Part shown: positions 17,957 to 63,989 of the stretch, piece by piece
How positions within the stretch are numbered: position 1 is the first letter of the stretch
How the letters are laid out: every line of letters starts with the position of its first letter
Program-made: the position numbers and the translations under genes
Notes under the pieces: model-generated
The model's input: the letters and a program-made list of their open reading frames with translations, nothing else
Database searches by the model: none
What the model was told of the DNA's origin: nothing
Source: Candidatus Hydrogenedens sp.
GTDB lineage: Bacteria > Hydrogenedentota > Hydrogenedentia > Hydrogenedentales > Hydrogenedentaceae
Reading direction: 5' to 3'
DNA: 64,000 bases
Assembly (NCBI GenBank): GCA_049968235.1
Contig: JBMFRC010000004.1
Coordinates: forward strand, 1 to 64,000

Positions 17957-19903
17957 TTATCTATGATACACTTTACTTTTCCGCAAAACAAAAATAAGCA
18001 ATAAGGTGGGGAATATAAGCAGGAGGGAATTATTAGTAATGCTTAAACCATGCGAGACATGTAAATAGACTTTTGGAGTTTCCACTACATTCAAATCATC
18101 TGAAACATGACACCAATACCAGCCTGAATCTTCAACGGATAAATCTTCAATATAAAGTTCCTGCCCTGATACATACGGAATAATTGTTGGATTGGGACAA
18201 AGATAATCTTTGCAATAATACCACTCATAGCCTATATTCCCCTGTGCTCCTTCTACATGAATAGTAAAAAGTTGCGATTCTCCAACAATTTTATTAATAT
18301 ATGTTTCCCCTTCTATCCATGCTATTAATTCGCTATCACCCTCTAAATCCCCCTCTCCTTCAAATATTCCTTCGATACTCCCTTCAGGTTCTCCATCTAT
18401 AATTCCTTCACTTTCAGGGCTCCCTTCTGATTCTCCTTCTATAATCCCCTCGCCTTCAAAAATACCTTCCGCCTCTCCATCTATAATTCCTTCACCTTCT
18501 GTAGGAATTCCTTCTGGAATTCCCTCGCCTTCACCATATCCCTCATTTATCAAGGTAAAATATGCTACATAATTTTTGTTCTCAATTATATTTGTATCTT
18601 TCCTGTTGGGAGTTAATAAACCATCTGACCAATGGTCAAAAAGATATCCACTATCCGCTACTGCAATTACTTCAGTTCCATCATTACCACGCATGATATT
18701 TTGCGTTGCATTTCCCAAAATATTTCCTCCAATATCCGCAGTATAAGTTACTGTAAATATCGGTGGTCTTTTTAATTCTGTAATTTTATAACTTATTTTC
18801 CCTCCTGCATAATAAAAATCCCCACCCACATATAAATTCCCTTGAGAATCGAACACCAGAGATCTGATTTCTTTATTTGAGCCATTTACTCCTGATGTTA
18901 TGCTACGCCAGTTACCTGAATACCACCATGCTAACCCATTTGCACTTATATTACCACCTGCAATGGAAAAATTACCTCCAATAAAAATAGATTGTGATGA
19001 TTTGGGTAAAATTGAATAAACGATGCCATTTACCCCGCCATCTAAAGAAGTCCACGAAGAACCATCCCAAATAGATATATTACTCACATTCACCCCACCT
19101 GCTTGTGTAAAACTTCCACCTGCATACAATCTACCCGTTTCATCTACCGCAAGAGAGTACACAGGTCCGTTAATTCCAGTTCCAAGGGAATGCCAATTCG
19201 TTCCATCCCAGCGGGCTATATTATTTGCAGAAACATTACCTGCATACTGGAATTGTCCCCCTGCATATATATTTCCATTAGAATCCGATGTTAATGACAA
19301 AACATAAGGAGAAGTGCCACCGCTCACACCCAAATAAGGTTCTACCCATTGAGAACCATTCCAATATGCAATCCGATTAATAGGTGTAGAACCGGACTGA
19401 GTAAATTTGCCTCCTACAAAGACTGTCCCATTATTTGTAATAGTTACCGTATATACAGCATCATTAAAGCCACTTCCTACCGCTACCCAACTCGAACCAT
19501 TCCACTTTGCCACTCGATTTCGGAGATTTGAACCCGAATAGGTAAATGAACCCACTGCATAAATTTCACCCCCTGTGGATATACATATTTTTTCTACCGC
19601 ATTATTAAAACCCTGTCCCATGGCTTGCCAATTTATTCCATTCCACCTCGCTACTCGATTTGCACTTACGCCATTTATTGAAGTAAAAGTGCCTCCACAA
19701 TAAACAATATTGTTATTATCTATGCCAACAGAGGTTATTAATCCATCTGTCCAATTAGGACTTAAAGGTTGCCAATCTTCATCAAGATAATTTGGGATAT
19801 CTTCTGAATATATAAAGGTCGAAATAATTCCAATAAAAACGACTATACCCAATCGTAGAAAAAATAGCATTCGTATCCCTTTCCTTTCATTTTTTCTGTT
19901 CAA
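17957..19903 (-). CDS. Secreted multidomain protein with four parts. They are W-containing beta-propeller repeats, a Listeria/Bacteroides-type B-repeat, an EG-rich acidic spacer plus Ig-like domain, and a C-terminal hydrophobic-basic tail.
   Basis: 648 aa. About 6 repeats of the pattern I/VARWNG-W-LG-G-NG-VY-L--D--GN-Y-GG-F. The B-repeat element reads GYLFDHWSDG. The spacer reads GEGEGIPEGIPTEGEGIIDGEAEGIFEGEGIIEGESEG.... The Ig-like signature reads CKDYLC...EDSGWYWCHV. The C-terminus reads LLLIFPTLLLIFVLRKSKVYHR. Confidence 0.6.
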   Translation of the reverse strand: MNRKNERKGIRMLFFLRLGIVVFIGIISTFIYSEDIPNYLDEDWQPLSPNWTDGLITSVGIDNNNIVYCGGTFTSINGVSANRVARWNGINWQAMGQGFNNAVEKICISTGGEIYAVGSFTYSGSNLRNRVAKWNGSSWVAVGSGFNDAVYTVTITNNGTVFVGGKFTQSGSTPINRIAYWNGSQWVEPYLGVSGGTSPYVLSLTSDSNGNIYAGGQFQYAGNVSANNIARWDGTNWHSLGTGINGPVYSLAVDETGRLYAGGSFTQAGGVNVSNISIWDGSSWTSLDGGVNGIVYSILPKSSQSIFIGGNFSIAGGNISANGLAWWYSGNWRSITSGVNGSNKEIRSLVFDSQGNLYVGGDFYYAGGKISYKITELKRPPIFTVTYTADIGGNILGNATQNIMRGNDGTEVIAVADSGYLFDHWSDGLLTPNRKDTNIIENKNYVAYFTLINEGYGEGEGIPEGIPTEGEGIIDGEAEGIFEGEGIIEGESEGSPESEGIIDGEPEGSIEGIFEGEGDLEGDSELIAWIEGETYINKIVGESQLFTIHVEGAQGNIGYEWYYCKDYLCPNPTIIPYVSGQELYIEDLSVEDSGWYWCHVSDDLNVVETPKVYLHVSHGLSITNNSLLLIFPTLLLIFVLRKSKVYHR

Positions 19904-48662: not shown

Positions 48663-48756
48663 TTTTACATGTCATTTTATTTTAAAGTAAGAACCACTCA
48701 TTGATACAATTTATCAAATATATATTTCTATACCAGAATATAAAAAGGTGATAAAC

Positions 48757-50364
48757 ATGGCGAGTGACTCCACGGATATAAAAGCAGGCACGATTTTATT
48801 TAATGAAAAAATCATAAAGGATTTAATTCATCTTTTAGCCCAACAAATTGTTAATGATAATGATGTTGAAGAATTGGCTTTCATTGGAATACTGCGGAGA
48901 GGTTATCCTTTGGCAAAACGAATTGCAGAAGAAATTTTTAAGATTTGCAAAGTACTCCCGCCAGTAGGGGCGGTCTCAACAACACTTTTCCGAGACGACC
49001 TGAGAATAGGTCGTGGGGTTGTTCAATCTCATGGGACAACACATTTTTCCTTTGATATTAATCAAAGGACAATTATCCTTGTAGATGATGTTTTAGCAGC
49101 GGGGCGAACAATAAGAGCGGCAATGGACGAAATCATGTATTATGGCAGACCTAAAAAAGTACTGCTGGCATGTTTAATAGACCGTGGCGGAAGAGAAATT
49201 CCCATTCAACCCTCTTATTGTGCATGGAAACCAACCCTTGAAGCAATACCTCAAAACTTATGGATTTCTGTCTTGCTTAAAGAGACCGACGGAAAAGATA
49301 TGGTAATCATAGAAGAACAAAAAAGTAAGGCAGAAACTCCATTGCAAGAAGTTTCCACAAAGGAACCGGTGTTTAGTGCGGACCATCCTGTATTGAAGAT
49401 ATGGAAGCACAAAGACTTATTAGGTTTGCAATTTTTATCTAAAGATGAAATTGTCTCTATACTGGATATGGTTCCACCTTTTCTTGAAGTCATGGCACGC
49501 AGTACAGGTATAAAAAAAGTGCCTTTATTACAAGGGAGAGTAGTTGTTCACTGGTTTCATGAACCGAGCACAAGGACCTTCGCCTCTTTTGACTTAGCAG
49601 CGAAAAGATTAAGTGCAGATACCCTTTCCATATCAGCAGCAAGCTCCAGTGAGAAAAAAGGAGAAACACTTCACGATACTTTGTATAACATTGAAGCAAT
49701 GAAAACGGATATTCTTGTGGTAAGACATCGCTACTCAGGTGTGCCAAAACTTTTAGCAGATAGTCATCCTTCTCATGTAATAAATGCAGGAGACGGGCAA
49801 CACGAGCATCCTACACAAGGACTATTAGATGTTTTTACGATGAGGCAGTTCTATCGAAATCATAAAAGGGATATGAACATAGGACTGGAAGGGGCTAAAG
49901 TTTCGATTATTGGAGATATAACTCATAGTCGGGTGGCAAGGAGTAATATCTGGGCATTATTAAAATTAGGTGCTCAAATTACTCTTTGCGGACCTCAGAC
50001 TTTATTACCAAAATCCTTTGAAAAATTAGGTGTAAGGATTACAACGCACCTGAAAGAGGCACTTCTGGATGCGGATATAATTTATTCTTTACGGATTCAG
50101 ATGGAAAGGCAAACCAAAGGTTTGTTCCCAAGTATTCGGGAATATGTCCGTTTGTATCGTATAGACCGCGATACCATTCGATATGCACCGGAACATGCAA
50201 TTGTTATGCATCCGGGACCTATTAATCGGGACATAGAATTAGCAACGGAAATTGCAGATAGCCCAAGGAGTCGAATATTACAACAGGTTAGTCATGGTGT
50301 CGCTGTTCGCATGGCGGTTATGCATCTATTAGCCAATAGTCAATACAACCAGAATGGAGTATAG
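48757..50364 (+). CDS. In-frame fusion of the PyrR regulator / uracil phosphoribosyltransferase domain with aspartate carbamoyltransferase catalytic chain (PyrB).
   Basis: The PRTase motif is IILVDDVLAAGRTIRAA within the first 180 aa. It is followed by the ATCase motifs STRTFASFDLAAKRLSAD and HPTQGLLDVFTM. The start is more likely ATG 48757, which has an AGGTGA Shine-Dalgarno, than the track's GTG at 48748. Confidence 0.75.
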   Translation: MASDSTDIKAGTILFNEKIIKDLIHLLAQQIVNDNDVEELAFIGILRRGYPLAKRIAEEIFKICKVLPPVGAVSTTLFRDDLRIGRGVVQSHGTTHFSFDINQRTIILVDDVLAAGRTIRAAMDEIMYYGRPKKVLLACLIDRGGREIPIQPSYCAWKPTLEAIPQNLWISVLLKETDGKDMVIIEEQKSKAETPLQEVSTKEPVFSADHPVLKIWKHKDLLGLQFLSKDEIVSILDMVPPFLEVMARSTGIKKVPLLQGRVVVHWFHEPSTRTFASFDLAAKRLSADTLSISAASSSEKKGETLHDTLYNIEAMKTDILVVRHRYSGVPKLLADSHPSHVINAGDGQHEHPTQGLLDVFTMRQFYRNHKRDMNIGLEGAKVSIIGDITHSRVARSNIWALLKLGAQITLCGPQTLLPKSFEKLGVRITTHLKEALLDADIIYSLRIQMERQTKGLFPSIREYVRLYRIDRDTIRYAPEHAIVMHPGPINRDIELATEIADSPRSRILQQVSHGVAVRMAVMHLLANSQYNQNGV

Positions 50365-53329: not shown

Positions 53330-56302
53330 ATGAAACAGTTTATAGCAAAAATAATTATTGGACTTCCCCTTATACTATTAATAATTGTTTCTTTCTCATG
53401 TCCCAAAAATCCTTCTGATATTCCTTCTGAGTCGGGTAATACCCAATATATTGAAGGTAATTTAGATGAAGGAGAAACCGAAGGTATTTTTGAAGGGGAA
53501 GTAAAATTTACAAGTGCTGGAGTCCTGAACAACCGTAATTGGGAATATACTCCTACGACTACAACTGATGTCTCTGAAGGGAATGAAGGGGGAGAAAACA
53601 CAAGGGAATTGGTTGAACCGGATGTCTATCGTAGACTAAACAATATCCTTTTTGTACTAAATCAATATCGCGGTTTAACACTTGTTGATTTAGATAATAA
53701 ATCAGTTATTTCTAATGTCCCTATATATGGTTATCCACGAGATTTATATGTGGTAGATAATAGAGCCTATGTTCTGATTGGTTATACTGTTCGACACACT
53801 ATCGAGGATGGGATTATAAAAAAGACCACAGGGTCCCAATTGTATATTGTTGATATTGGGAATCCGGAGGTCCCTAAAATAATATCTGCACTAACATTAC
53901 CTGGAGATTTTATTGATAGCCGAATGCTCGGCGATGTTTTATATGCTGTAACTTCAGATTATCAATATTCATATATTGAAGATGCGACAGAAGGTGGAAA
54001 CATTTCTTCAAGTGCCACATGGACAAAAGAAGCAGGGAGCAAATGCTGGATAACCAGTGTCAATATAAAACAAGAGGAAAATCCTTCAATAACCGACCAG
54101 GTTGAATTTCCAGGTTATGGAACGGTTATTCAAGCATCAACTTCTTCAATATATGTATGTGCTTCCGATTGGAATAACAACTCTACTCAACTAACTTATA
54201 TAGATATAACAAACCCTTCCGGTAAAATTGAATCCTATTCTCTGGGAACTGTTCCAGGGTATGTAGCAGACCGTTTTAAGTTAGATGAATGGGATGAAAC
54301 ATTACGCGTGGTTTCAAACACATGGTGGTCTGAACGGCATACTTATTTAACTATTTTTGATGTTTCAAATCCTTCACAAGGATTTCCGCAACTTTCTCAA
54401 ATAACAATTCCTGATGCTCAAGGTGAGACATTATATGCAACTCGGTTTGCAGGACCATTAGCCTATTTAGTTACTTATTTAACCATAGACCCATTATTTG
54501 TTCTCGATTTAACTGACCCCTCAAAACCCGAAGTCAAGGGACAATTAAAGGTTCCTGGATGGTCTGTCCATATAGAACCTATTGCAAATAATCAACTTAT
54601 TGCATTAGGCATTGATGACACGGAAAATCAACGCCGTGTTAAAGTAAGTTGGTTTGATGTTTCAGCCCCGAATAATCCCGAAGAAAAGTCGGTCGTTTCT
54701 TTAGGAGAAGGCTGGACATGGTCTTCCGCATTCAGTGATGTAAAATCATTTGCAATTCTGGGGAATCTTGTTATTGTTCCATTTAGCGGATGGAATGGGA
54801 ATGAATACAAAGAACAATTGCAATTTATTGTGTTAAATATGGAGAACCAGCAACTTATGTCCCTTGGTTCTGTAGATATGAAAGGGCAGGTATCACGAAC
54901 AATTAAATATAACGACCTTTTCTATGCTATTACTTCAGAATATATTCATGAAATTCAATGTGATGGAGTAAATCCTCCTGATTTAACAAATAACAGTATT
55001 CTCCTCGTTGAAAATGTGGCCGATGTTATGGAATTGAGTGCAAGTGGTGTAGTTATGGAAATCATAAACCAAACGGAGCAAAAAAATATAGGAATTCGGT
55101 TAACCGAAGGCAACACTATCTTCAGTTCTATTTCTATTGAAACAAATGGCTGGCTGATGGATACAATAAAAGTCTCTAATAATGCAGTGGCCCTGGTTAT
55201 TAACGAGTGGTCGCAAGAGCATTCCTATGAATCTTATTATAGGGTGGTTTTTGTAACTATAGATGAAAATTTTATGCCTTCGATATTTAAAGATATTAAA
55301 CTTCCATTAGCACCGTATTATTCTTATTGGGGATGGTGCCGGGGATGTGATTATATGCCTGTACCAATGCCCGAGAGACTTACCAATAATATAGGTTCTG
55401 TTGCTTTATCTGAAGGTATATCTTCTGATTCTCAAAAAGTGATTGCACCCTATTATTGGTGGTATCCCATAACGAATACGAAACCTTCTATGGTTTGCGG
55501 TAATTATCTCGTTTTAAGAGGTTGGGGGAACTCGTATGAGTATATAATTGGCAATCAGACTACCCCTTATGATGGCTTTGCAATTCTAAATCTGGATAAT
55601 CCTGAAGATATTAGAACTGTTGGACTGGGGTATAACAATATCGTTTCGCTTTTAGAAGCCAGTGGAAAATTATTCCTTACCTTACAAAAAAATGTGAGTT
55701 CCGAAAATGATTATTATCCCCTTGTTGCTTATTATTTGGGCGAAATAGATTTAATTTCTTTAGAGGAACCTGACTTTGCTAATATTCCGGGAATATTACA
55801 GTCTTCTAATGAGCAAGGAAACATACTTTTCTTGAAAGATTGGCAATATAGTTCGACAGGGAATTACTATGACTTTGAACAATGGATACACAGTATTCAA
55901 TGGGAAAAGAATAAACCCGTAAAAATAATTGATTCTTACAAGTTACCGACAACATGGGGAAATGTCAGGATTAATTTGCCTTATCTTTTAGTACTAACGG
56001 GATATGACAATCTCGTTCTTGAAAAGATAGATATTACTACAGATGGCAGATTCGTCAGCCCTTGCAAAACAAAGATCGGAAATGTATGGGGGGATATTTT
56101 GGGAATGACTACAAATCATTTATATCTTTCTCTTGATGGAGCATCTGTATTGTTAATGAATTTAGGTTATGGAGAAAACCCAGTAATGAATAATATCTAC
56201 CCCATACCTAATTACCCTCAAAAATTCAGAGTGGGAAAACTTGGTATATATATTGTATCTGGTTACTCTGGATATATATTCTTACCCTTTCAAATTTTAT
56301 AA
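53330..56302 (+). CDS. Large secreted, possibly lipidated, beta-propeller-domain protein.
   Basis: 990 aa. The signal peptide ends VSFSC, a weak lipobox. An N-terminal acidic EGNLDEGETEGIFEGE segment follows. Long beta-rich repeats are consistent with the Beta_propel-type family. Confidence 0.5.
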   Translation: MKQFIAKIIIGLPLILLIIVSFSCPKNPSDIPSESGNTQYIEGNLDEGETEGIFEGEVKFTSAGVLNNRNWEYTPTTTTDVSEGNEGGENTRELVEPDVYRRLNNILFVLNQYRGLTLVDLDNKSVISNVPIYGYPRDLYVVDNRAYVLIGYTVRHTIEDGIIKKTTGSQLYIVDIGNPEVPKIISALTLPGDFIDSRMLGDVLYAVTSDYQYSYIEDATEGGNISSSATWTKEAGSKCWITSVNIKQEENPSITDQVEFPGYGTVIQASTSSIYVCASDWNNNSTQLTYIDITNPSGKIESYSLGTVPGYVADRFKLDEWDETLRVVSNTWWSERHTYLTIFDVSNPSQGFPQLSQITIPDAQGETLYATRFAGPLAYLVTYLTIDPLFVLDLTDPSKPEVKGQLKVPGWSVHIEPIANNQLIALGIDDTENQRRVKVSWFDVSAPNNPEEKSVVSLGEGWTWSSAFSDVKSFAILGNLVIVPFSGWNGNEYKEQLQFIVLNMENQQLMSLGSVDMKGQVSRTIKYNDLFYAITSEYIHEIQCDGVNPPDLTNNSILLVENVADVMELSASGVVMEIINQTEQKNIGIRLTEGNTIFSSISIETNGWLMDTIKVSNNAVALVINEWSQEHSYESYYRVVFVTIDENFMPSIFKDIKLPLAPYYSYWGWCRGCDYMPVPMPERLTNNIGSVALSEGISSDSQKVIAPYYWWYPITNTKPSMVCGNYLVLRGWGNSYEYIIGNQTTPYDGFAILNLDNPEDIRTVGLGYNNIVSLLEASGKLFLTLQKNVSSENDYYPLVAYYLGEIDLISLEEPDFANIPGILQSSNEQGNILFLKDWQYSSTGNYYDFEQWIHSIQWEKNKPVKIIDSYKLPTTWGNVRINLPYLLVLTGYDNLVLEKIDITTDGRFVSPCKTKIGNVWGDILGMTTNHLYLSLDGASVLLMNLGYGENPVMNNIYPIPNYPQKFRVGKLGIYIVSGYSGYIFLPFQIL

Positions 56303-56308
56303 AAAGTC

Positions 56309-56557
56309 TTGAATTCGTCTATGGCATTTGTATTAAAGTCAAAAACAATAAAGTGTCCAAATTGTTTCTATGAGGGAAAAGCAAAAGTTGAAGAGACAGG
56401 TTGTGGGTTGTGGTTACTTTTGTTAGTCGTTTTGATAGTATCTTTTAGTTTCCCACCATTGTTTATTGTAATCCCTCTGATGTTTTTATGGTTATTGCTA
56501 AAACCCGCTAAACAGATATGTCCTCGTTGTAAATATCCTTACCCTATATTTAAATAA
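56309..56557 (+). CDS. LITAF-like membrane-inserted zinc-ribbon protein.
   Basis: 82 aa. CPNC and CPRC knuckles flank a hydrophobic stretch of about 40 aa, which is the LITAF/SIMPLE-like architecture. It starts 7 nt after the beta-propeller gene. Confidence 0.5.
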   Translation: MNSSMAFVLKSKTIKCPNCFYEGKAKVEETGCGLWLLLLVVLIVSFSFPPLFIVIPLMFLWLLLKPAKQICPRCKYPYPIFK

Positions 56558-57917: not shown

Positions 57918-58667
57918 ATGAGTCAAACAGAAAAAAAACTAAAAAAGTCGGATTTGACCTTAGAACTACTTGGAGTTCCAAGAACTATATTCAAAAAGAT
58001 TAAAGAATGTTCCTCTATAGCAAAATCACCTCCAAAAGATATATCGTATATATGGATAAAAGTATCCGGACAAGACATAAATAAAAACACGAAGGAACAA
58101 TGTAATCGATTAAATCTTGATGACTGGTTAAATATTGTTGATGAGGCAGTTTCTGAGGGAGCCAATTGGCTTGTGCTAACCGTTCATGTTCCTATAGACC
58201 AAATGAAAGAGGTTATCGAAATATGTCAATGGTCTCAAAATACCTATAATATGAAAGTAGGTTTATTTTTATGTAGAGAAAAAATTTCTACAAATGAAAT
58301 AAAAATTCTTAGCAGTCTAAAAAAAGAATTAACACAGATTTTTGTTAAAAAGAAGGCTCTTGAACAATTTAAAAAATTACGAGAAATGGGATTGTTTTTA
58401 GGTATTGCAGACCCTCAAAAATATGGAGACAAACCTAATTGTGAGGGAGCGTCAAAGTTACTCTATGTTGACAATGACGGTTCTATTTATACCTGCGGTC
58501 TTGTATCAGGAATGAAAAATTACAAATTGGGAAATATATACGAAAAAAAATTTCAGGAAATAGTAAAAGACCCATCATTACCCCATAGCGTAGAAGAAAA
58601 AATTCATAAAGTAAATGAAGGCTGTGATGGCTGTCCCTCTCTGTTAATGAAATACCTCAAAAAATAA
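57918..58667 (+). CDS. SPASM/twitch-domain protein lacking the radical-SAM CxxxCxxC triad.
   Basis: 249 aa. The C-terminal C-x17-(DGSIYTC)...LGNIYEKKFQEIV...CDGC matches the SPASM/twitch pattern. The N-terminal 170 aa contain no CX3CX2C. Confidence 0.45.
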   Translation: MSQTEKKLKKSDLTLELLGVPRTIFKKIKECSSIAKSPPKDISYIWIKVSGQDINKNTKEQCNRLNLDDWLNIVDEAVSEGANWLVLTVHVPIDQMKEVIEICQWSQNTYNMKVGLFLCREKISTNEIKILSSLKKELTQIFVKKKALEQFKKLREMGLFLGIADPQKYGDKPNCEGASKLLYVDNDGSIYTCGLVSGMKNYKLGNIYEKKFQEIVKDPSLPHSVEEKIHKVNEGCDGCPSLLMKYLKK

Positions 58668-58688: not shown

Positions 58689-60248
58689 TTATCCTAATGC
58701 TTTTACAACTTCTCTTAAATCAAGTCCGAGATATTGTATGCTTTTCTCCCTTATCTTTAATGCTTCACGGATAACTTCATCCCGAATGGATTGCTCTCCC
58801 GGTAAACCTGCTATTGAAGAAATAAAAAGGATATGTGCCAGGTCTTTAGATTTTCCCGGGGCTTTATAGGGTTCTAAATAATGGCATAAAGCATGAACAA
58901 CTACTTCCGGGAATTTCCATCTGCTCGCTAATAGAGATGCCGTAACTGCATGATTGATAGTAAAATATTCCGTTTCTTTTCTCAATCGTATTTCTGGAAG
59001 AGAATCTTTCATAATCTTTTTATATTCTTCCTGACCCACCATATATAGTACAATAGCCCCTATTTGATGTATCAAGGCGGTAGTATACGCAAGAGAAGGG
59101 CTTACTCTCTTTGAATTTTGCGCTAATTTTTCTGCAAGTTTTGCAGAAAGTTTTGACCTTCCGCTTATGGGCAGGACAGGATATTCTGAAATAGGCAAAT
59201 GACTTTCTTTAATGTGATTCATCATTACCTGTATTCCATTGGGACCGAGAAGAGTAAGGGCAGACCATATACTACCTATCCTCTTCTCCTCTGATACAAT
59301 GGATGTATTAGCCCAACGAAGTAATGCAGTTGCTAACGAAGGTTCGTCTGTAAAGATGGAACTTAAATCTTCTATATTGGGAGAACTGTCATCTAAAACC
59401 ATACTTAAAGCGAGTTCGGCTGTGGGGGGAATAGGAAGATATTCTAATTCGTCAATTAACAGTTCAACATTTTTCCTTTCCCTTTCATAAGTTTCCTCCG
59501 GAAATTGAACAACAGAATCGGCATGTTGTCCTACTACCCCGGGTTTTGTTTTTATGATTCTACTTTCTGGCGTTGGGACAGATGAAGTAGTAGAAATAGA
59601 AGGAGTATGGTAAATTCCTGTATCTCCCGTTTTCCCCTTGTGATATTTATTTATTGTCTCCTCAATTTCTGTAATTCGGGCAAGAGTGGGCTTTACCCTC
59701 AATTGTGTAAATTGTTCAACAAGAAAAACTGTTTCTTTATCAATAGGACATGCCATTGCTAAAGTCAGATTTCTTCCTAATTTATCAACAGGAAACACAA
59801 ACCTTTCATCACATAATTTCTTCGGGACTAATTCAACAATTTCTTTATCTATATACAGACGATTAATATCAATCTTAGGGAAACCTGAATTTCTTGAAAG
59901 AATATCAAACAATTTTTCTGCAGGTAATTTTTCATTATGATACAGTATTTTTAAAAGGTATCCCCCTTGTTTCTTTTGTATTTCTATTGCCTCTTCCAAA
60001 TCTTGACTTGTTATTAAGCCTGATGTAATAAGCCATTGAGCCAGAGTACCTGTAAAATTAGCACCTGATGCAGAAGTATCTACTCCGCCAATTTGTCCAC
60101 CTACAGAAGTTTCCGGAGAGGAAGGAATATAACGAATAATATTACCACAACGGACACATTTAAATGTCTTCCCCTCTGCTGAGGTCGGCACTTTCATTCT
60201 TTGACCACATTTGGCACAACTAATTATTTCGTATTCTTGTTCACTCAC
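58689..60248 (-). CDS. Zinc-ribbon, GspE-N/MshEN-like and HDOD three-domain protein.
   Basis: 519 aa. The N-terminal ribbon reads CAKCGQ...CVRCG. Residues about 60 to 200 resemble the T2SS-E N-terminal (MshEN) domain. The C-terminal 200 aa are an HDOD-like helical bundle. Confidence 0.5.
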   Translation of the reverse strand: MSEQEYEIISCAKCGQRMKVPTSAEGKTFKCVRCGNIIRYIPSSPETSVGGQIGGVDTSASGANFTGTLAQWLITSGLITSQDLEEAIEIQKKQGGYLLKILYHNEKLPAEKLFDILSRNSGFPKIDINRLYIDKEIVELVPKKLCDERFVFPVDKLGRNLTLAMACPIDKETVFLVEQFTQLRVKPTLARITEIEETINKYHKGKTGDTGIYHTPSISTTSSVPTPESRIIKTKPGVVGQHADSVVQFPEETYERERKNVELLIDELEYLPIPPTAELALSMVLDDSSPNIEDLSSIFTDEPSLATALLRWANTSIVSEEKRIGSIWSALTLLGPNGIQVMMNHIKESHLPISEYPVLPISGRSKLSAKLAEKLAQNSKRVSPSLAYTTALIHQIGAIVLYMVGQEEYKKIMKDSLPEIRLRKETEYFTINHAVTASLLASRWKFPEVVVHALCHYLEPYKAPGKSKDLAHILFISSIAGLPGEQSIRDEVIREALKIREKSIQYLGLDLREVVKALG

Positions 60249-60458
60249 ACATTTATTCCCAGTGATTTCACTGATTTTTTATCGTATATTATATTTTATC
60301 ATAAAATATTTATTAAGAAATACAAATTTTTTGTTTATTTTCTATTTCTAATATGATAAACTATTGGTATGAAAAAAACAAGTTTTTAAGGTATTTTATT
60401 GACAAAAATTTTTATTAATAATAATTGTGATTTTTAATGTTATTAGAAGGAAAAATAA

Positions 60459-63400
60459 ATGCTACTTGAAGAGTTAGATGATATATTTAAAAAAACACAT
60501 GAATTATTTTTCCGTCGTAATTTTATTGGAGCAAATAAGAATTTAAACACACTTCCCGTGGATTTTAACAATTTTATAAACTATTTATTTTTAAAGGCTG
60601 ATTTATTTACAGTTTTAGAAGATTGGAATGAATTATTGAATCTTGTCCCAATAATTGAAAAACAAATTAGTGAATTAGAAGAAAGGATTTCATGGTTTAC
60701 TATACACTTCGATGAAGAAGAGAAAGATTACCTGAGAGAGATAGTATCTAATTATCATTACCGATTAGAACAAATAAAGGAAGAACTTAATAGACAAACA
60801 CAAAAAATAGAGGAGAAAACGGAAGAAAAAATAATCTATGAAGAGCAAATCCGTGAATTGAAAAGTCAGCTTATTCACATGAAAGAGAAAAAAGAGGAAG
60901 AAGAAGCTATTCGTAAGGCTTTATCTGTTGAATTAGAAGAACTCAAGAAACAGGAAAAAAGGAAAAATGAAGAATTATTACGGGCACAGGAGGAATTGAG
61001 ACACTTAAAAGATTCTCTGGATGAAAAAGAGCAGGAAGTCCAGACCGCAGCATTGGAGCGTGCCCAACGAGAAAAAACAATCGCTCTCATGGAAGCGGAA
61101 TTAAATTCCCTTCAAGAAAAAGCAGAAGAGACAGCCCAATCTCAGGCAAGTTTAATCGAGGAATTAAAGCAATTAAAAGAACTGAGTAAAACAAAAGAAG
61201 AGGCTTTGCAACAGGCTCAACATCAACTTCAAGAATTACAACAAACATTAAAATCGCGTGAAGCGGAAATTACTGTATTAGAAAATGAAAAGAAAGAACG
61301 CGAGAAACAGGTTCAATATTTAGAACAGGAATTAGGAAAACTAAATGAGCAAGCACGAGATGCTGAAAAATCTCAAGAAGATTTGCAAAAGCAAATAGAA
61401 GAGCTGCGAAGGGTTGAGGAACAGAAATCGAAAGAATTGGATGAAACTCGGGATGCTTTACAGCAACTACAACAGCAACTTAAAGAAAAAGAGCAATTAA
61501 TACAATCATTAGAAAGACAGTCATCAGAAAGCCAAAAAGAGGTTGAACGGCTTCGGGAGGAAATGAAAGCCACACAATCTCAAGCCAAACATGCTCAGGA
61601 AGCAGAACAACAGTTACAAAAGGAAATAGAGCAACTTCGAAAAGCCACACAATCCAAAGAAATGGCTCTTGATAACACTCGGGGTGAATTAGAAAAAGTT
61701 CAGCAAATGCTGGCAGAACGGGAGGCTCTACTTCAAAATGCCGAAAAACGAAGTATGATGACTGTCGAAAATCTTCAGCAAATACAGAGAGAATATGAAC
61801 AATTAAAGAATCAAGCGGAACAATATATTAAAACTGAACAAACAATGGTTCAAGAACTGGAACTGTTAAGGAAAGGAGAACAGGAGAAGGCAAATGCTCT
61901 TGAGGAAGCACAGCATAAGGTTAAAGAATTACAAGAAGAACTGAAAGCACGCGAAATAGCATTTCAAGAGTCCCAAAAGGCACAGGAACAGTATATCCTG
62001 CAAATACAAAGATTACAAGAGGAATTAAATTCTGTTCGTGAAAAAGCCCATGAAGCAACTCATTCTGAAAGCCAAATTGAAGAGGAATTAACTGTTTTCC
62101 GTAAGAAACTTACTTCTAAAGAGCAAGAATTTATTGAATTACAAAATAAATTAGACCAATTATCCGCTTCTCTGCTTGAAAAAGAAACTGCTATTCGAGA
62201 AGAGATTAAAAAACGGACGGAAAAAGAAGAACTTTTAGCCAAACTACAGGAAGAATTGGTCTTATTACACCAACGAACCCATTCTACACAAACACACCAA
62301 GAAATACTTGAACAGGAAATTCAATCTTTAAAACATCGCGAAACAGAAAAAAATACAGAATTAGATAAAGCACGAGAACAACTCAATTCTTTACAACAGA
62401 CATTATCCCAGAGAGAACAAGAAATCGCTAAGATTAATGAAGAAAAGGTTCGAAAAGAAAAACAGTTGGAAGACCTTATGAGTGAAATGGAGGCTTTACG
62501 GTCTCAAACATCTATGTTATTAAGTTCTCGTCAACAACTCAGGCAGGAATTGGAGCAATTAAAGCAAAAACAAATGTTCTCTAAATCTGAACCTGAAAAA
62601 GAGACTTCAACCGCAACAAAGCAAACCTCTTCTGTTAGTCTGTTTGAAGAAATTCCTGAAGCAATACTGGCTTCTGCAAGCATTAGTGTTGCTAAAGGGA
62701 ATAATAAATTTACAATGTTAGTAACTGTAATTGGAATTATTGTGGTTTTATGTGCTGGAATAGGTATTGGTTATTATTTTTCACGGGGTAAAATAGGACC
62801 TCAAAATCAAGTTGCTCAACAAAATGTTGAACAGAAAGATATTGTTAACAAACCAGAACCAACTCAGATAACATCACAAGTTGATGAAAAATCCGCCATA
62901 CCTGCAACACCCGCCATAATTGAAACAACAAAGGAAAATACGGAACAGACTTCCACCCCTCCTCAACAGGCAACGGAACCAGAAAAGAAAAGTGTAATAC
63001 TTTCATTCCCGGAAAATATATCTTTAGGTTCCTTATTCTATCAGGACAAACAGGTATCTGACAGTAATAATTGGACACAGTTACAGGAGGCGAAAGGGAG
63101 TGTAGAAGTCAATCCAGAGTGGAAAATTCAATTAAGGACAAACTTGGGACTATTGCCCCGAATTATGAATTTAAATTCGGGAATATTGGGAAAAATTTCG
63201 GTTCTGACATTGGACTCTATACCTCAGGAAGAAAGTGTCTTAAAATGGTTATCTCAGGTGAATTTTGGAACAATCTATATTGATAATGATGTATCTGAGA
63301 GGATACTAAATGAAATTAAGTCTAATTATTCAAATTTGAATATCATCTGTAAAAATGTAATTTCAGATATTATAGAAGATAAACCCCTTCCTGAAAGGAC

Positions 63401-63989
63401 CATCGTATTTCCTGAAAACAAATCTTTAGGGAAAATCCTTACTCGAGCATGGGGAGAACCATTACAAACGGAATGGAAACCTTTTACAGATGCAAAGGGA
63501 ACAATATATATTCCCAGAAATACAGAAGTAAAGTTACAAATGGAAATTGAAGGAGCCCGCGAAATGTCCTGGCTTATGAATTTACAACCGAATGATATTC
63601 AAGCGTTAGGCATGGTAGGCTACGGAGTTAATGACGAAAAAATAGGTTACATCAGCCATTTAACAGGACTAAAGAGTTTGCAGTTAGTTCAGACCGGTGT
63701 TTCAGATGCGGGAATCTTAAAGTTAAAAAATTTGCGAAATTTAAGAGAAGTAAAGTTATACACAATTAATATTACGGATAGAGGATTTGAAGTATTTGAT
63801 TCTTTTCCGCTTTTAGAAGAGTTATGGATACAACAGGCAAAAATAACAAATGCAAGTGTAGGGAAAATTTGCAAAATGAAGAACCTAAAGCGGTTACATT
63901 TAGCAAATACAGGAATTTCTCCTGAGGGACTTTTGCAAATACAATCTTCTTTAACTCAATGTGTTATAACTCCACGTGGGACAAGTTAA
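60459..63989 (+). CDS. Giant coiled-coil, TM and LRR protein.
   Basis: 1176 aa. About 700 aa of E/K/Q-rich heptad coiled coil are followed by a single TM, VTVIGIIVVLCAGIGIGYYF. The C-terminal approximately 430 aa end in RNI-type leucine-rich repeats (LTGLKSLQL...LKNLRNLREVKL...LKRLHLANTGI). Confidence 0.6.
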   Translation: MLLEELDDIFKKTHELFFRRNFIGANKNLNTLPVDFNNFINYLFLKADLFTVLEDWNELLNLVPIIEKQISELEERISWFTIHFDEEEKDYLREIVSNYHYRLEQIKEELNRQTQKIEEKTEEKIIYEEQIRELKSQLIHMKEKKEEEEAIRKALSVELEELKKQEKRKNEELLRAQEELRHLKDSLDEKEQEVQTAALERAQREKTIALMEAELNSLQEKAEETAQSQASLIEELKQLKELSKTKEEALQQAQHQLQELQQTLKSREAEITVLENEKKEREKQVQYLEQELGKLNEQARDAEKSQEDLQKQIEELRRVEEQKSKELDETRDALQQLQQQLKEKEQLIQSLERQSSESQKEVERLREEMKATQSQAKHAQEAEQQLQKEIEQLRKATQSKEMALDNTRGELEKVQQMLAEREALLQNAEKRSMMTVENLQQIQREYEQLKNQAEQYIKTEQTMVQELELLRKGEQEKANALEEAQHKVKELQEELKAREIAFQESQKAQEQYILQIQRLQEELNSVREKAHEATHSESQIEEELTVFRKKLTSKEQEFIELQNKLDQLSASLLEKETAIREEIKKRTEKEELLAKLQEELVLLHQRTHSTQTHQEILEQEIQSLKHRETEKNTELDKAREQLNSLQQTLSQREQEIAKINEEKVRKEKQLEDLMSEMEALRSQTSMLLSSRQQLRQELEQLKQKQMFSKSEPEKETSTATKQTSSVSLFEEIPEAILASASISVAKGNNKFTMLVTVIGIIVVLCAGIGIGYYFSRGKIGPQNQVAQQNVEQKDIVNKPEPTQITSQVDEKSAIPATPAIIETTKENTEQTSTPPQQATEPEKKSVILSFPENISLGSLFYQDKQVSDSNNWTQLQEAKGSVEVNPEWKIQLRTNLGLLPRIMNLNSGILGKISVLTLDSIPQEESVLKWLSQVNFGTIYIDNDVSERILNEIKSNYSNLNIICKNVISDIIEDKPLPERTIVFPENKSLGKILTRAWGEPLQTEWKPFTDAKGTIYIPRNTEVKLQMEIEGAREMSWLMNLQPNDIQALGMVGYGVNDEKIGYISHLTGLKSLQLVQTGVSDAGILKLKNLRNLREVKLYTINITDRGFEVFDSFPLLEELWIQQAKITNASVGKICKMKNLKRLHLANTGISPEGLLQIQSSLTQCVITPRGTS

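What the first reader, a model, noticed from the sequence alone, without database searches (positions are those of the whole stretch)
60459..63989. 1176-aa coiled-coil, TM and LRR receptor-like protein
The first approximately 700 aa are an uninterrupted E/K/Q-rich coiled coil. Their length is comparable to SMC or myosin rods. A single TM follows, then an approximately 430-aa C-terminal region ending in ribonuclease-inhibitor-type LRRs. This is a eukaryote-like receptor topology and is rare in bacteria outside the PVC group.
Basis: seen in the sequence. Interest (0 to 1): 0.5.

Follow-up and report, generated by a model that had tools for sequence, protein, structure and literature searches.

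The report
Membrane-anchored 95-nm coiled-coil stalk protein
The gene is real and encodes a giant, uncharacterised membrane protein found, where taxonomy is known, only in the uncultured phylum Hydrogenedentota: a rigid ~95-nm stalk of exact 77-residue repeats inside the cell, with a leucine-rich-repeat domain outside the inner membrane, always encoded next to one signalling-type partner gene.

Summary

New findings:
- The rod is 7 exact 77-residue repeats (11 heptads each). This period is conserved in all 22 homologues examined, which carry 7 to about 22 repeats. The rod is the most conserved part of the protein.
- The N-terminus is a TPR-like head.
- The periplasmic part is two copies of a beta-cap + LRR cassette that is widespread next to membrane anchors.
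- Every named member is from Hydrogenedentota, annotated hypothetical or mis-annotated as Smc.
- The gene is paired divergently with a Zn-ribbon/MshEN-like/HDOD gene (58689-60248, -). This holds in the window, in 5/5 genome loci and in 23 metagenome loci.
- Relatives in which a disordered linker replaces the rod lack this partner.

"Eukaryote-like receptor" is only partly apt: the protein is N-in, has no signal peptide and has no kinase or other output domain. The best reading is a bitopic scaffold or tether of fixed length that works with the HDOD partner. The function is inferred, not shown.

The parts
60459..63989 (+). Whole gene, 1176 aa: TPR-like head, 77-residue-repeat coiled-coil rod, TM, two cap+LRR modules
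   Evidence: ORF listing. Orthologues at 66-88% identity in L008-L016. Family alignment.
60459..60698 (+). N-terminal TPR-like head (aa 1-~80), cytoplasmic, at the membrane-distal tip
   Evidence: A profile of 16 family N-termini hits solved TPR proteins (Naa15/NAT1 E 5e-9, TTC0263, Tom71, SRP72, CHIP). hhalign gives 98.2% probability to the TPR_16-positive head of P0063. The window's own copy is divergent (16-22% identity to the high-GC members).
60669..62573 (+). Continuous heptad coiled coil, aa ~71-705 (about 635 aa, about 94 nm if fully helical)
   Evidence: Single heptad frame and 7/2 power of 9.8 against a shuffle maximum of 1.13. a/d occupancy. No Pro in aa 65-711.
60936..62552 (+). 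Seven tandem 77-residue repeats (11 heptads each), aa 160-698, with no indels
   Evidence: BLOSUM autocorrelation peaks at lags 77/154/231 (1.31/1.11/1.05) against a shuffle maximum of 0.39. Repeat HMM hits are spaced 76-78 aa in all 22 family members. This is the most conserved region among orthologues (95/89/79/77%) and has no gaps.
62574..62708 (+). Ser/Thr-rich non-coil linker before the TM (aa 706-750)
   Evidence: Composition. Lower conservation, 38-74%. In high-GC homologues the coil runs up to the TM instead.
62709..62777 (+). Single transmembrane helix (aa 751-773), N-in/C-out
   Evidence: Kyte-Doolittle 19-mer score 2.67, the only such segment. The TM lies at aa 744-753 in 12 class-A homologues. 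K/R-rich N-side flanks in homologues.
62778..62993 (+). Pro/Thr/Gln/Glu-rich periplasmic linker (aa 774-845), poorly conserved and variable in length
   Evidence: 20-65% identity with 3-18 gap columns among orthologues. Nearly absent in high-GC homologues.
62994..63362 (+). Periplasmic module 1: 5-stranded beta cap (FPENxSLGxL...W...AKG) plus 3 short LRR-like beta-alpha units (aa 846-968)
   Evidence: AF2 model mccab2ff03fc0, strands E2-50 then beta-alpha units. Internal duplication of module 2 (many hits with 2 stretches).
63396..63971 (+). Periplasmic module 2: beta cap (aa 980-1028) plus about 6 LRRs of 24-25 aa (aa 1029-1171)
58689..60248 (-). Conserved divergent partner gene: 519-aa cytoplasmic Zn-ribbon + MshEN-like + HDOD protein
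   Evidence: Pfam HDOD 87.8 bits and MshEN 43.2 bits. Adjacent and divergent in the window, in 5/5 rod-queried genome loci and in 23 metagenome loci. Exact match to MGC8737806.1, 'HDOD domain-containing protein [Candidatus Hydrogenedens sp.]'.
60249..60458 (.). Shared 210-bp AT-rich divergent intergenic region with conserved blocks. These include TTGACA at 60399-60404 with the adjoining TTAATAATAATT block, ATATGATAAACTATT at about 60351, and CCCAGTGA at about 60258.
   Evidence: Alignment of five orthologous intergenic regions, 73% mean column identity. Sequence. The promoter role is inferred only.

Best explanation
The gene encodes a bitopic inner-membrane scaffold or tether. Where taxonomy is known, it is specific to Candidatus Hydrogenedentota.

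Shown by sequence or structure prediction:
- A small TPR-like head sits at the N-terminus.
- It is carried on an unbroken heptad coiled coil of about 635 residues (about 94 nm). The coil contains seven exact 77-residue repeats.
- A single TM helix follows.
- Outside the membrane there are two copies of a beta-cap + LRR cassette close to the bilayer.

Inferred:
- The rod is a parallel homo-oligomer, probably a dimer, that projects from or lies under the inner membrane in the cytoplasm.
- The periplasmic LRR fixes or positions the protein by binding an envelope or periplasmic partner. That partner could also be a ligand.
- The head and the highly conserved rod surface act as docking sites that hold cytoplasmic clients at a fixed distance from the membrane.
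- The main client is the product of the divergently transcribed partner gene, a Zn-ribbon/MshEN-like/HDOD adaptor-type protein.

Functionally it would work like the polar or landmark hub proteins PodJ, TipN, FimV and HubP, and not like an enzyme-linked receptor.
For: - Architecture and topology.
- The 77-residue period is conserved in all 22 homologues. The TM lies at aa 744-753 in 12 of them, at 26-90% identity.
- The alignment from residue 1 to the end of the rod is almost gapless across seven members that share only 26-28% identity.
- The rod is the most conserved region among orthologues, at 95/89/79/77% identity. The head is at 83/67/46/50% and the LRR at 93/86/77/78%. This argues for constraints on the rod surface, not only on the heptad pattern.
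- TPR-like head.
- The same head + TM + cap/LRR architecture exists with an acidic or Pro-rich disordered spacer in place of the rod (P0063, P0045, P0068). The middle part therefore behaves as a spacer.
- Gene pairing with the MshEN-like/HDOD gene: window plus 5/5 genome loci plus 23 metagenome loci. Every evaluable locus among the best-ranked partner hits has the rod gene. The two disordered-spacer relatives whose upstream DNA is visible lack the partner.
- No enzymatic or output domain in the rod protein.
- The neighbourhood is housekeeping: carA, pyrB, pyrC, RtcB.
- Precedents. PodJ has cytoplasmic coiled coils, a TM and periplasmic repeat domains, and recruits signalling clients (PMC8980812). 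The HDOD protein SadB acts as an adaptor (PMC12075610).
Against: - No experiment exists for any member, and the organism is uncultured.
- Oligomeric state, rod orientation and localisation are unknown. No complex could be modelled.
- The partner link rests on gene adjacency only. About 18 loci with more distant MshEN-HDOD genes lack the rod gene.
- The same cap+LRR cassette is fused to BlaR1-type M56 signal transducers in other bacteria. That favours a sensing role for the outside domain.
- No charge periodicity that would indicate ordered lateral packing was found.
- Long-rod members (up to about 22 repeats, roughly 250 nm) are hard to fit perpendicular to the membrane of a small cell.
Confidence: 0.45

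Rival explanations
1. Transmembrane sensor. The periplasmic cap+LRR cassette binds an extracytoplasmic ligand, and the signal reaches the cytoplasm. The route could be regulated proteolysis or release of the head or rod (anti-sigma/BlaR1-like logic), or a change in how the rod binds the HDOD partner.
For: The same cassette is fused, right after the membrane anchor, to BlaR1-type M56 signal-transducer domains in P0007, P0014, P0029, P0044 and P0049. In 90 of 114 proteins the cassette follows a hydrophobic anchor. The partner carries signalling-type domains, MshEN-like and HDOD.
Against: The rod protein has no HAMP, kinase, protease or other output domain. A rigid coil of 94-250 nm is implausible as a conformational wire. 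A sequestration mechanism would not need a length-conserved, sequence-conserved rod. The partner's c-di-GMP motifs are degenerate in this genome.
Confidence: 0.2
2. Membrane-anchored cytoskeletal element. The rods self-assemble laterally into filaments or a sub-membrane lattice, in the manner of the intermediate-filament-like proteins crescentin, FilP and Scy. This assembly shapes or stiffens the cell, and the 77-residue repeat sets the stagger.
For: Very long, uninterrupted, sequence-conserved coiled coil with an exact period. Conserved charged residues at some core positions (E7, K10, R31, E70 of the repeat) could specify register. Long-rod variants reach about 250 nm.
Against: No significant charge periodicity. 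Relatives replace the rod with a disordered spacer while keeping the head, TM and LRR. That fits a tether better than a filament subunit. A TM plus a large periplasmic domain is unusual for bacterial IF-like proteins.
Confidence: 0.2
3. SMC/Rad50-like chromosome-organising ATPase. Some public pipelines annotate family members as 'Chromosome partition protein Smc' or 'chromosome segregation ATPase'.
For: NCBIfam SMC, Rad50 and ASRP models, and PADLOC JetC, give low E-values. Public names are listed.
Against: All hits cover only coil segments and are far below the cut-offs (69.7 against 567 bits; 27.6 against 1087). There is no Walker A/B head and no hinge. There is no Pro/Gly break that would allow an antiparallel arm. 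The protein has a TM and a periplasmic LRR.
Confidence: 0.02
4. Assembly or annotation artefact: a collapsed or expanded repeat, or a fused ORF.
For: Repetitive, low-complexity protein. One homologous contig is frameshifted (L001) and one has a scaffold gap (L002).
Against: No near-identical DNA repeats. At least five independent assemblies give full-length, gapless orthologues of 1154-1171 aa. The architecture is conserved down to 26% identity.
Confidence: 0.01

Closest known systems
PodJ (Caulobacter crescentus polar scaffold); by analogy also TipN, FimV and HubP landmark proteins
   Same: Bitopic inner-membrane protein with a large cytoplasmic N-terminal coiled-coil region, one TM and periplasmic protein-interaction repeats. 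PodJ recruits cytoplasmic signalling clients (PMC8980812).
   Different: No sequence homology was detected. PodJ has six separate coiled-coil segments plus a disordered region, and periplasmic TPR plus a peptidoglycan-binding domain. Here there is one uninterrupted rod of exact 77-residue repeats, a TPR-like head at the cytoplasmic tip, and periplasmic cap+LRR modules. Localisation is untested.
Bacterial extracytoplasmic cap+LRR cassette proteins (356 uncharacterised cluster representatives; some fused to BlaR1 M56 transducers)
   Same: True homologues of the C-terminal modules at E down to 1e-30. They share the FPxxxSLGxL...W...AxG beta cap followed by 24-25-residue LRRs, placed right after a membrane anchor.
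   Different: Most lack the TPR head and all lack the 77-residue rod. Their cytoplasmic parts differ: M56 peptidase, a disordered linker, or none.
TPR-head / disordered spacer / TM / LRR relatives (P0063, P0045, P0068)
   Same: Homologous N-terminal head (hhalign 98.2%, E 4e-14, starting at residue 1), a TM, and the same cap+LRR cassette.
   Different: An acidic or Pro-rich disordered spacer of about 100-330 aa takes the place of the coiled coil. They have more LRRs. No MshEN-HDOD neighbour is present.
F-box/LRR (FBXL2-type, cysteine-containing) and bacterial LRR proteins (Leptospira LIC11098, internalins, Roco LRR)
   Different: Only the fold is shared (13-26% identity). None has the cap, the TM or the rod.
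Bacterial coiled-coil-rich cytoskeletal proteins (crescentin, FilP, Scy) and rod proteins with quasi-repeats (tropomyosin)
   Same: Long heptad rods. A periodic super-repeat is superimposed on the heptads, as in tropomyosin's seven quasi-repeats (my own knowledge, not tested here).
   Different: Those proteins are soluble and have no TM or periplasmic domain. Their periods differ, and no 77-residue repeat was found in the literature searched.

Membership tests
Coiled coil (heptad-based) | Hydrophobic residues at a/d positions with 7/2 periodicity over a long stretch free of helix breakers | tested here: met
   LIVMF at 63% and 51% of two positions against 6-10% elsewhere. 7/2 power of 9.8 against a shuffle maximum of 1.13, and one frame over aa ~71-730. 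No Pro in aa 65-711.
Leucine-rich repeat superfamily | Tandem 20-30-residue units with an LxxLxLxxN/C-type strand, forming a curved beta-alpha solenoid | tested here: met
Eukaryote-type LRR receptors (LRR-RLK/RLP, TLR) | N-terminal signal peptide, N-terminal extracellular LRR, TM, cytoplasmic kinase or TIR domain (or a short tail) | tested here: not met
   The N-terminus is acidic and non-hydrophobic, and no upstream start is possible. The LRR is C-terminal. There are no kinase or TIR hits. K/R residues on the N-side of the TM in homologues point to N-in.
SMC / Rad50 / JetC | N- and C-terminal ABC ATPase head halves, a hinge or zinc hook, and an antiparallel intramolecular coiled coil | tested here: not met
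   Hits cover only coil segments and lie far below the cut-offs (69.7 against 567; 46.7 against 729; 27.6 against 1087 bits). JetC scores 25.7 bits on the coil only. There is no break in the helix.
TPR (N-terminal head) | Helix-turn-helix repeats of about 34 residues recognisable by TPR profiles | tested here: met
   The family profile A5 hits solved TPR domains over positions 3-77 (Naa15 E 5e-9, TTC0263 7e-5, Tom71 1e-3, CHIP and SRP72). Homologous heads of P0045, P0063 and P0068 hit Pfam TPR_16/TPR_19. The window's own copy is divergent and gives no Pfam TPR hit.
PodJ family | Homology to PodJ, with periplasmic TPR plus a peptidoglycan-binding domain | tested here: not met
   The periplasmic part is cap+LRR, not TPR plus a peptidoglycan-binding domain. 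No such domains appear in Pfam or NCBIfam scans. The resemblance is architectural only. A direct PodJ sequence comparison was not run.
HDOD domain proteins (partner gene) | Match to PF08668 above the gathering threshold | tested here: met
   87.8 bits against a cut-off of 22.9 in the window's partner. 69-136 bits in five orthologues.
MshEN c-di-GMP receptor (partner gene) | Two tandem 24-residue motifs RLGxx(L/V/I)(L/V/I)xxG(L/V/I)(L/V/I)xxxxLxxxLxxQ separated by 5 residues (PMC5013675) | tested here: not met
   The 24+5+24 scaffold is present. In the window's partner, positions 1 and 3 fail in both motifs (TLA.. and YLL..). No rod-linked partner has a complete second motif, and 8 of the 15 scored have a relaxed first motif. 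NCBIfam c-di-GMP_motif scores 32.3 bits against a cut-off of 38. The Pfam MshEN fold itself is met (43.2 bits against 23.1). Binding was not tested biochemically.

The most novel reading that the evidence does not exclude
The 77-residue repeats are a length-coded, multivalent docking array. Each repeat presents the same conserved surface and binds one copy or one dimer of the MshEN-like/HDOD partner, or one subunit of a periodic cytoplasmic structure. The rod would then act as a molecular ruler that sets both distance from the membrane (about 11.4 nm per repeat) and client stoichiometry (7 to about 22). This would be a bacterial counterpart of tropomyosin- or nebulin-type rulers, coupled across the membrane to a periplasmic LRR.
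Probability: 0.12. Interest if true: 0.75.

Novelty: new variant of a known kind. Interest (0 to 1): 0.5.

Why it matters
Hydrogenedentota has no cell-biological description. This conserved gene pair would be a first handle on how these cells organise their envelope or poles.

The rod is unusual among bacterial coiled-coil proteins in three ways. It has an exact 11-heptad period kept without indels down to 26% identity. The number of repeats varies between lineages. It is the most conserved part of the protein. Together these suggest a ruler or multivalent platform, which is directly testable with recombinant protein.

The work also defines a widespread, unnamed juxtamembrane beta-cap + LRR cassette. 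It also corrects public mis-annotations of the family as Smc or chromosome segregation ATPase.

Tried and rejected
- Pfam, NCBIfam and PADLOC scans on the whole protein gave only compositional coil hits (DUF745, Lebercilin, SMC, Rad50, JetC). All were rejected as homology.
- The word-indexed homologue search with the C-terminal 401 aa found two orthologue fragments plus generic LRRs. With the N-terminal 110 aa it found only an identical fragment.
That was a wasted search. A C-terminal alignment would have been better.
- The genome scan with the 6-member alignment had no stretch conserved enough. A 3-member alignment worked.
- The AFDB50 fold library was unavailable.
No multimer prediction is possible with these tools.
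- The first AF2 model, on 3 sequences, was mediocre (pLDDT 70.8) and was replaced.
- Charge-periodicity Fourier analysis of the rod showed nothing above shuffles. A myosin-like stagger signal is therefore not supported.
- TRF and direct-repeat scans found no near-identical repeats.
- Literature searches for Hydrogenedentes + coiled-coil, '77-residue repeat', and MshEN + HDOD found nothing on this family.
- Apart from the partner, the only conserved neighbours are a SPASM-only gene in one clade and syntenic nusB/rib genes. There are no pilus, secretion or flagellar genes nearby.
Full report
**Observation**

The ORF at 60459..63989 (+) exists exactly as described. It has an ATG start, encodes 1176 aa, has no competing ORF of at least 80 aa on either strand, and cannot be extended upstream.
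- GGA lies 9 nt before the ATG.
- The four close orthologues with a called start (L008, L010, L012, L014) begin with the same MLLEEL/MLLDEL.
- GC content (0.34-0.35) matches the rest of the window.
- The neighbourhood is housekeeping: carA, a pyrR-pyrB fusion, pyrC, RtcB.

The partner protein is an exact match to an NCBI entry from Candidatus Hydrogenedens sp. The N-terminal 110 aa are 100% identical to a partial Hydrogenedens protein. The window therefore comes from Candidatus Hydrogenedens (Hydrogenedentota).

**Coiled coil**

- Residues 65-711 contain no proline and only three glycines.
- LIVMF residues occupy 63% and 51% of two heptad positions spaced 3/4, and 6-10% of the other five.
- Fourier power at period 7/2 is 9.8, against a maximum of 1.13 in 1000 shuffles.
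- A sliding-window test keeps one heptad frame from about aa 71 to 730, with no stutter or stammer.
- At 0.1485 nm per residue, aa 71-705 would be about 94 nm long. This length is an inference.
- One core position carries 22% K+R. From general coiled-coil knowledge that is more typical of dimers. The oligomeric state was not tested.

- BLOSUM62 autocorrelation of the rod peaks at lags 77, 154 and 231 (1.31, 1.11, 1.05), against a shuffle maximum of 0.39. All other top lags are multiples of 7.
- Residues 160-698 are seven tandem 77-residue units (11 heptads each) with no indels. The units are 22-35% identical to each other.
- At the DNA level only short diverged matches remain. The best is 50 nt at 74% identity, with spacing 924 = 4 x 231 nt. 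TRF finds nothing.
- The repeats are therefore ancient, and misassembly is excluded.

**TM and topology**

- The only strongly hydrophobic segment is aa 751-773.
- In homologues, the N-side flank of the TM is K/R-rich (for example LLKRVKEQKRPP). The C-side flank is neutral or acidic.
- With a 750-aa N-terminal region and no signal peptide, this gives N-in/C-out.
- The rod is cytoplasmic and the C-terminal 400 aa are extracytoplasmic. They are periplasmic if the organism is diderm, which is an inference.

**C-terminal domain**

- AF2 on a 10-row family alignment gives pLDDT 89.7 and pTM 0.69.
- The model shows two copies of the same module. Each has a five-stranded beta cap carrying the motif FPxxxSLGxL...W...AxG, followed by beta-alpha LRR units. 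Module 1 (aa 846-968) has three units and module 2 (aa 980-1171) has about six.
- The units are 24-25 residues long. The fold is LRR, but not the 28-29-residue RI type.

An exhaustive phmmer search with aa 845-1074 found 356 cluster representatives at E<=1e-3. Most matched the 100-aa cap region.
- In 90 of 114 evaluable proteins a hydrophobic anchor lies upstream of the first cap, often 30-45 residues before it.
- The cap+LRR is therefore a widespread, unnamed, juxtamembrane extracytoplasmic cassette.
- Its other fusion partners include BlaR1-type M56 transducers.

**The family**

Full-architecture relatives were recovered from three sources: the representative library (P0024, P0020, P0036, P0099, P0120, P0016), GTDB genomes (L003-L007) and metagenomes.
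- Every member that carries a taxonomic protein name is from Candidatus Hydrogenedentota, Hydrogenedentes or Hydrogenedens.
- These members are annotated hypothetical, or are mis-annotated as Smc, chromosome segregation ATPase or Zn-ribbon protein.
- Three MAGs are labelled Nitrospirales, Nitrospiraceae or Rhodothermaeota. L005 shares nusB/rib synteny with Hydrogenedens contigs.
- A repeat HMM finds units spaced 76-78 aa in all 22 proteins examined.

Repeat number varies between lineages.
- Twelve proteins, at 26-90% identity to the window, have 7-9 repeats and a TM at aa 744-753.
- Others have about 12, 12-15, 17, or 17-22 repeats.
- The two long-rod members whose sequences were read (L006, L007) carry a single cap+LRR module.

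Across seven members that share only 26-28% identity, the alignment from residue 1 to the end of the rod is almost gapless. Among closer orthologues the repeat region is the most conserved part of the protein.
- Repeat region: 95/89/79/77% identity with zero gaps.
- Head: 83/67/46/50%.
- LRR module: 93/86/77/78%.
- Periplasmic linker: 65/49/20/37%, with indels.

This goes beyond maintenance of a heptad pattern and implies constraints on the rod surface. A consensus over 178 repeats shows conserved surface residues. It also shows conserved charged residues at some core positions (E7, K10, R31, E70).

**N-terminal head**

- A profile of 16 family N-termini hits solved TPR domains over its first ~75 positions: Naa15/NAT1 E 5e-9, TTC0263, Tom71, SRP72 and CHIP.
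- Three relatives (P0063, P0045, P0068) have a homologous head at residue 1 (hhalign 98.2%, E 4e-14; Pfam TPR_16/TPR_19).
- In these relatives the head is followed by an acidic or Pro-rich disordered spacer instead of a coil, and then by a TM and cap+LRR modules.
- The conserved core is therefore head, spacer, TM, cap/LRR. In the Hydrogenedentota family the spacer is a rigid, quantised rod.

**Partner gene**

The divergently transcribed upstream gene (58689..60248, -) encodes a 519-aa soluble protein with an N-terminal CxxC...CxxC ribbon, an MshEN domain and an HDOD domain.
- It lies immediately upstream and divergent in the window, and in all five genome loci found with the rod as query.
- A reciprocal metagenome scan with the partner as query returned 51 loci.
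  - 23 of them carry a rod gene in the same divergent position.
  - This includes every evaluable locus among the best-ranked hits.
  - About 18 lower-identity or MshEN-only hits do not carry it.
  - About 10 loci have too little upstream DNA to judge.
- The disordered-spacer relatives have no such neighbour. The partner therefore tracks the rod.

The partner keeps the 24+5+24 MshEN scaffold (PMC5013675) but not the key residues.
- In this window, positions 1 and 3 fail in both motifs.
- No rod-linked partner has a complete second motif.
- The NCBIfam c-di-GMP motif model scores below its cut-off, 32.3 against 38 bits.
- Canonical c-di-GMP binding is therefore doubtful. The domain may serve as a protein-docking module, as proposed for the N1 domain of pilus ATPases (PMC11656802).
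- HDOD domains can act as adaptors, as in SadB (PMC12075610).

**Interpretation**

The most economical reading is a bitopic scaffold or tether.
- The periplasmic LRR anchors or positions it.
- The rod holds a TPR head, and its own conserved repeat surface, at a fixed distance from the membrane.
- The MshEN-like/HDOD protein is the likely client.

This works like PodJ, which has cytoplasmic coiled coils, a TM and periplasmic repeats and recruits PleC (PMC8980812). It is not a homologue of PodJ. I put this reading at 0.45.

The rivals are as follows.
- A sensor role for the LRR cassette (0.2). It is supported by the BlaR1 fusions and weakened by the lack of any output domain and by the rigid 94-250-nm coil.
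- A self-assembling sub-membrane cytoskeleton (0.2). It is supported by rod conservation. It is weakened by the disordered-spacer relatives and by the absence of charge periodicity.
- SMC-like function is excluded. The models match coil only, at 69.7 bits against a cut-off of 567, and there is no head or hinge.
- An artefact is excluded.

**Verdict**

The 'eukaryote-like receptor' interpretation is only partly right. What is really there is an uncharacterised two-gene module, so far seen only in Hydrogenedentota where taxonomy is known. Its large component is a membrane-anchored, repeat-quantised coiled-coil stalk. It is a new variant of the known class of bitopic coiled-coil scaffolds. Interest is moderate (0.5). 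The exact 77-residue ruler-like repeat and its linkage to the HDOD partner are the unusual and testable features.

Noticed in passing
window 57918-58667 (+): A 249-aa protein with only a SPASM/auxiliary 4Fe-4S domain (PF13186, TIGR04085) and no CxxxCxxC radical-SAM motif in its N-terminal part. It ends 22 bp from the end of the partner gene (convergent). It is conserved next to the partner in 8 loci (WIN, L005, L008, L010, L012, L014, L017, L037), including distant high-GC members.
   Followed up: partly
window 60260-60273: Perfect palindrome CAGTGAttTCACTG, 12-25 nt upstream of the partner gene's GTG start, where its ribosome-binding site should be. The CCCAGTGA half is conserved in five orthologous intergenic regions. 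It could be an operator or a translational hairpin.
   Followed up: partly
window 60351-60429: Conserved intergenic blocks ATATGATAAACTATT and TTGACAAAA..TTAATAATAATT upstream of the rod gene in five orthologous loci. The promoter scan did not call this site, and the -10 element is ambiguous.
   Followed up: partly
window 48748-50364 (+): A single 538-aa ORF that fuses a phosphoribosyltransferase (PyrR/UPRTase-like) domain to a complete aspartate carbamoyltransferase (OTCace_N + OTCace). It is followed by dihydroorotase, and carA lies nearby. This looks like a regulator-enzyme fusion in pyrimidine synthesis.
   Followed up: no
window 53330-56557 (+): A 990-aa secreted or lipoprotein-like beta-propeller protein (PF09826). 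An 82-aa LITAF-like zinc-ribbon membrane protein (PF10601, a mostly eukaryotic family) follows 7 bp downstream.
   Followed up: no
window 17957-19903 (-): A 648-aa protein with many 'ARWNG..W' type repeats, a long acidic (E-G-E/I-P-E-G) low-complexity stretch and a C-terminal hydrophobic anchor. Seen only in the ORF translation.
   Followed up: no
L001 (GCA_030153585.1, JASEKO010007533.1), whole locus: Nearly every gene on this contig is broken into fragments, including the rod gene, ribD, ribBA, the ABC ATPase and SufBD. The contig therefore carries many frameshift errors. The database protein P0002 (245 aa) is a fragment of the rod orthologue, not a separate short protein.
   Followed up: partly
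P0156, P0159, P0036 (public records of family members): Public annotations call members of this family 'Chromosome partition protein Smc', 'chromosome segregation ATPase' or 'predicted nucleic acid-binding Zn-ribbon protein'. All of these names come from coiled-coil composition and are wrong.
   Followed up: yes
P0063, P0045, P0068; loci L059, L061: Relatives with the same TPR head, TM and cap+LRR modules, but with an acidic or Pro-rich disordered spacer in place of the rod. In both long loci the gene is followed by a convergent Peptidase_M42 gene. Their taxon is unknown.
   Followed up: partly
P0120, P0016 (aa ~700-900): Two family members insert a Q/S/P/A-rich low-complexity segment of about 160-200 aa between the end of the rod and the TM, with a conserved 'YPKPRDVxFVFPDQSxS' motif just before the TM. 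The window protein has a shorter Ser/Thr-rich linker at this position, with a conserved FEEIPEAI motif.
   Followed up: no
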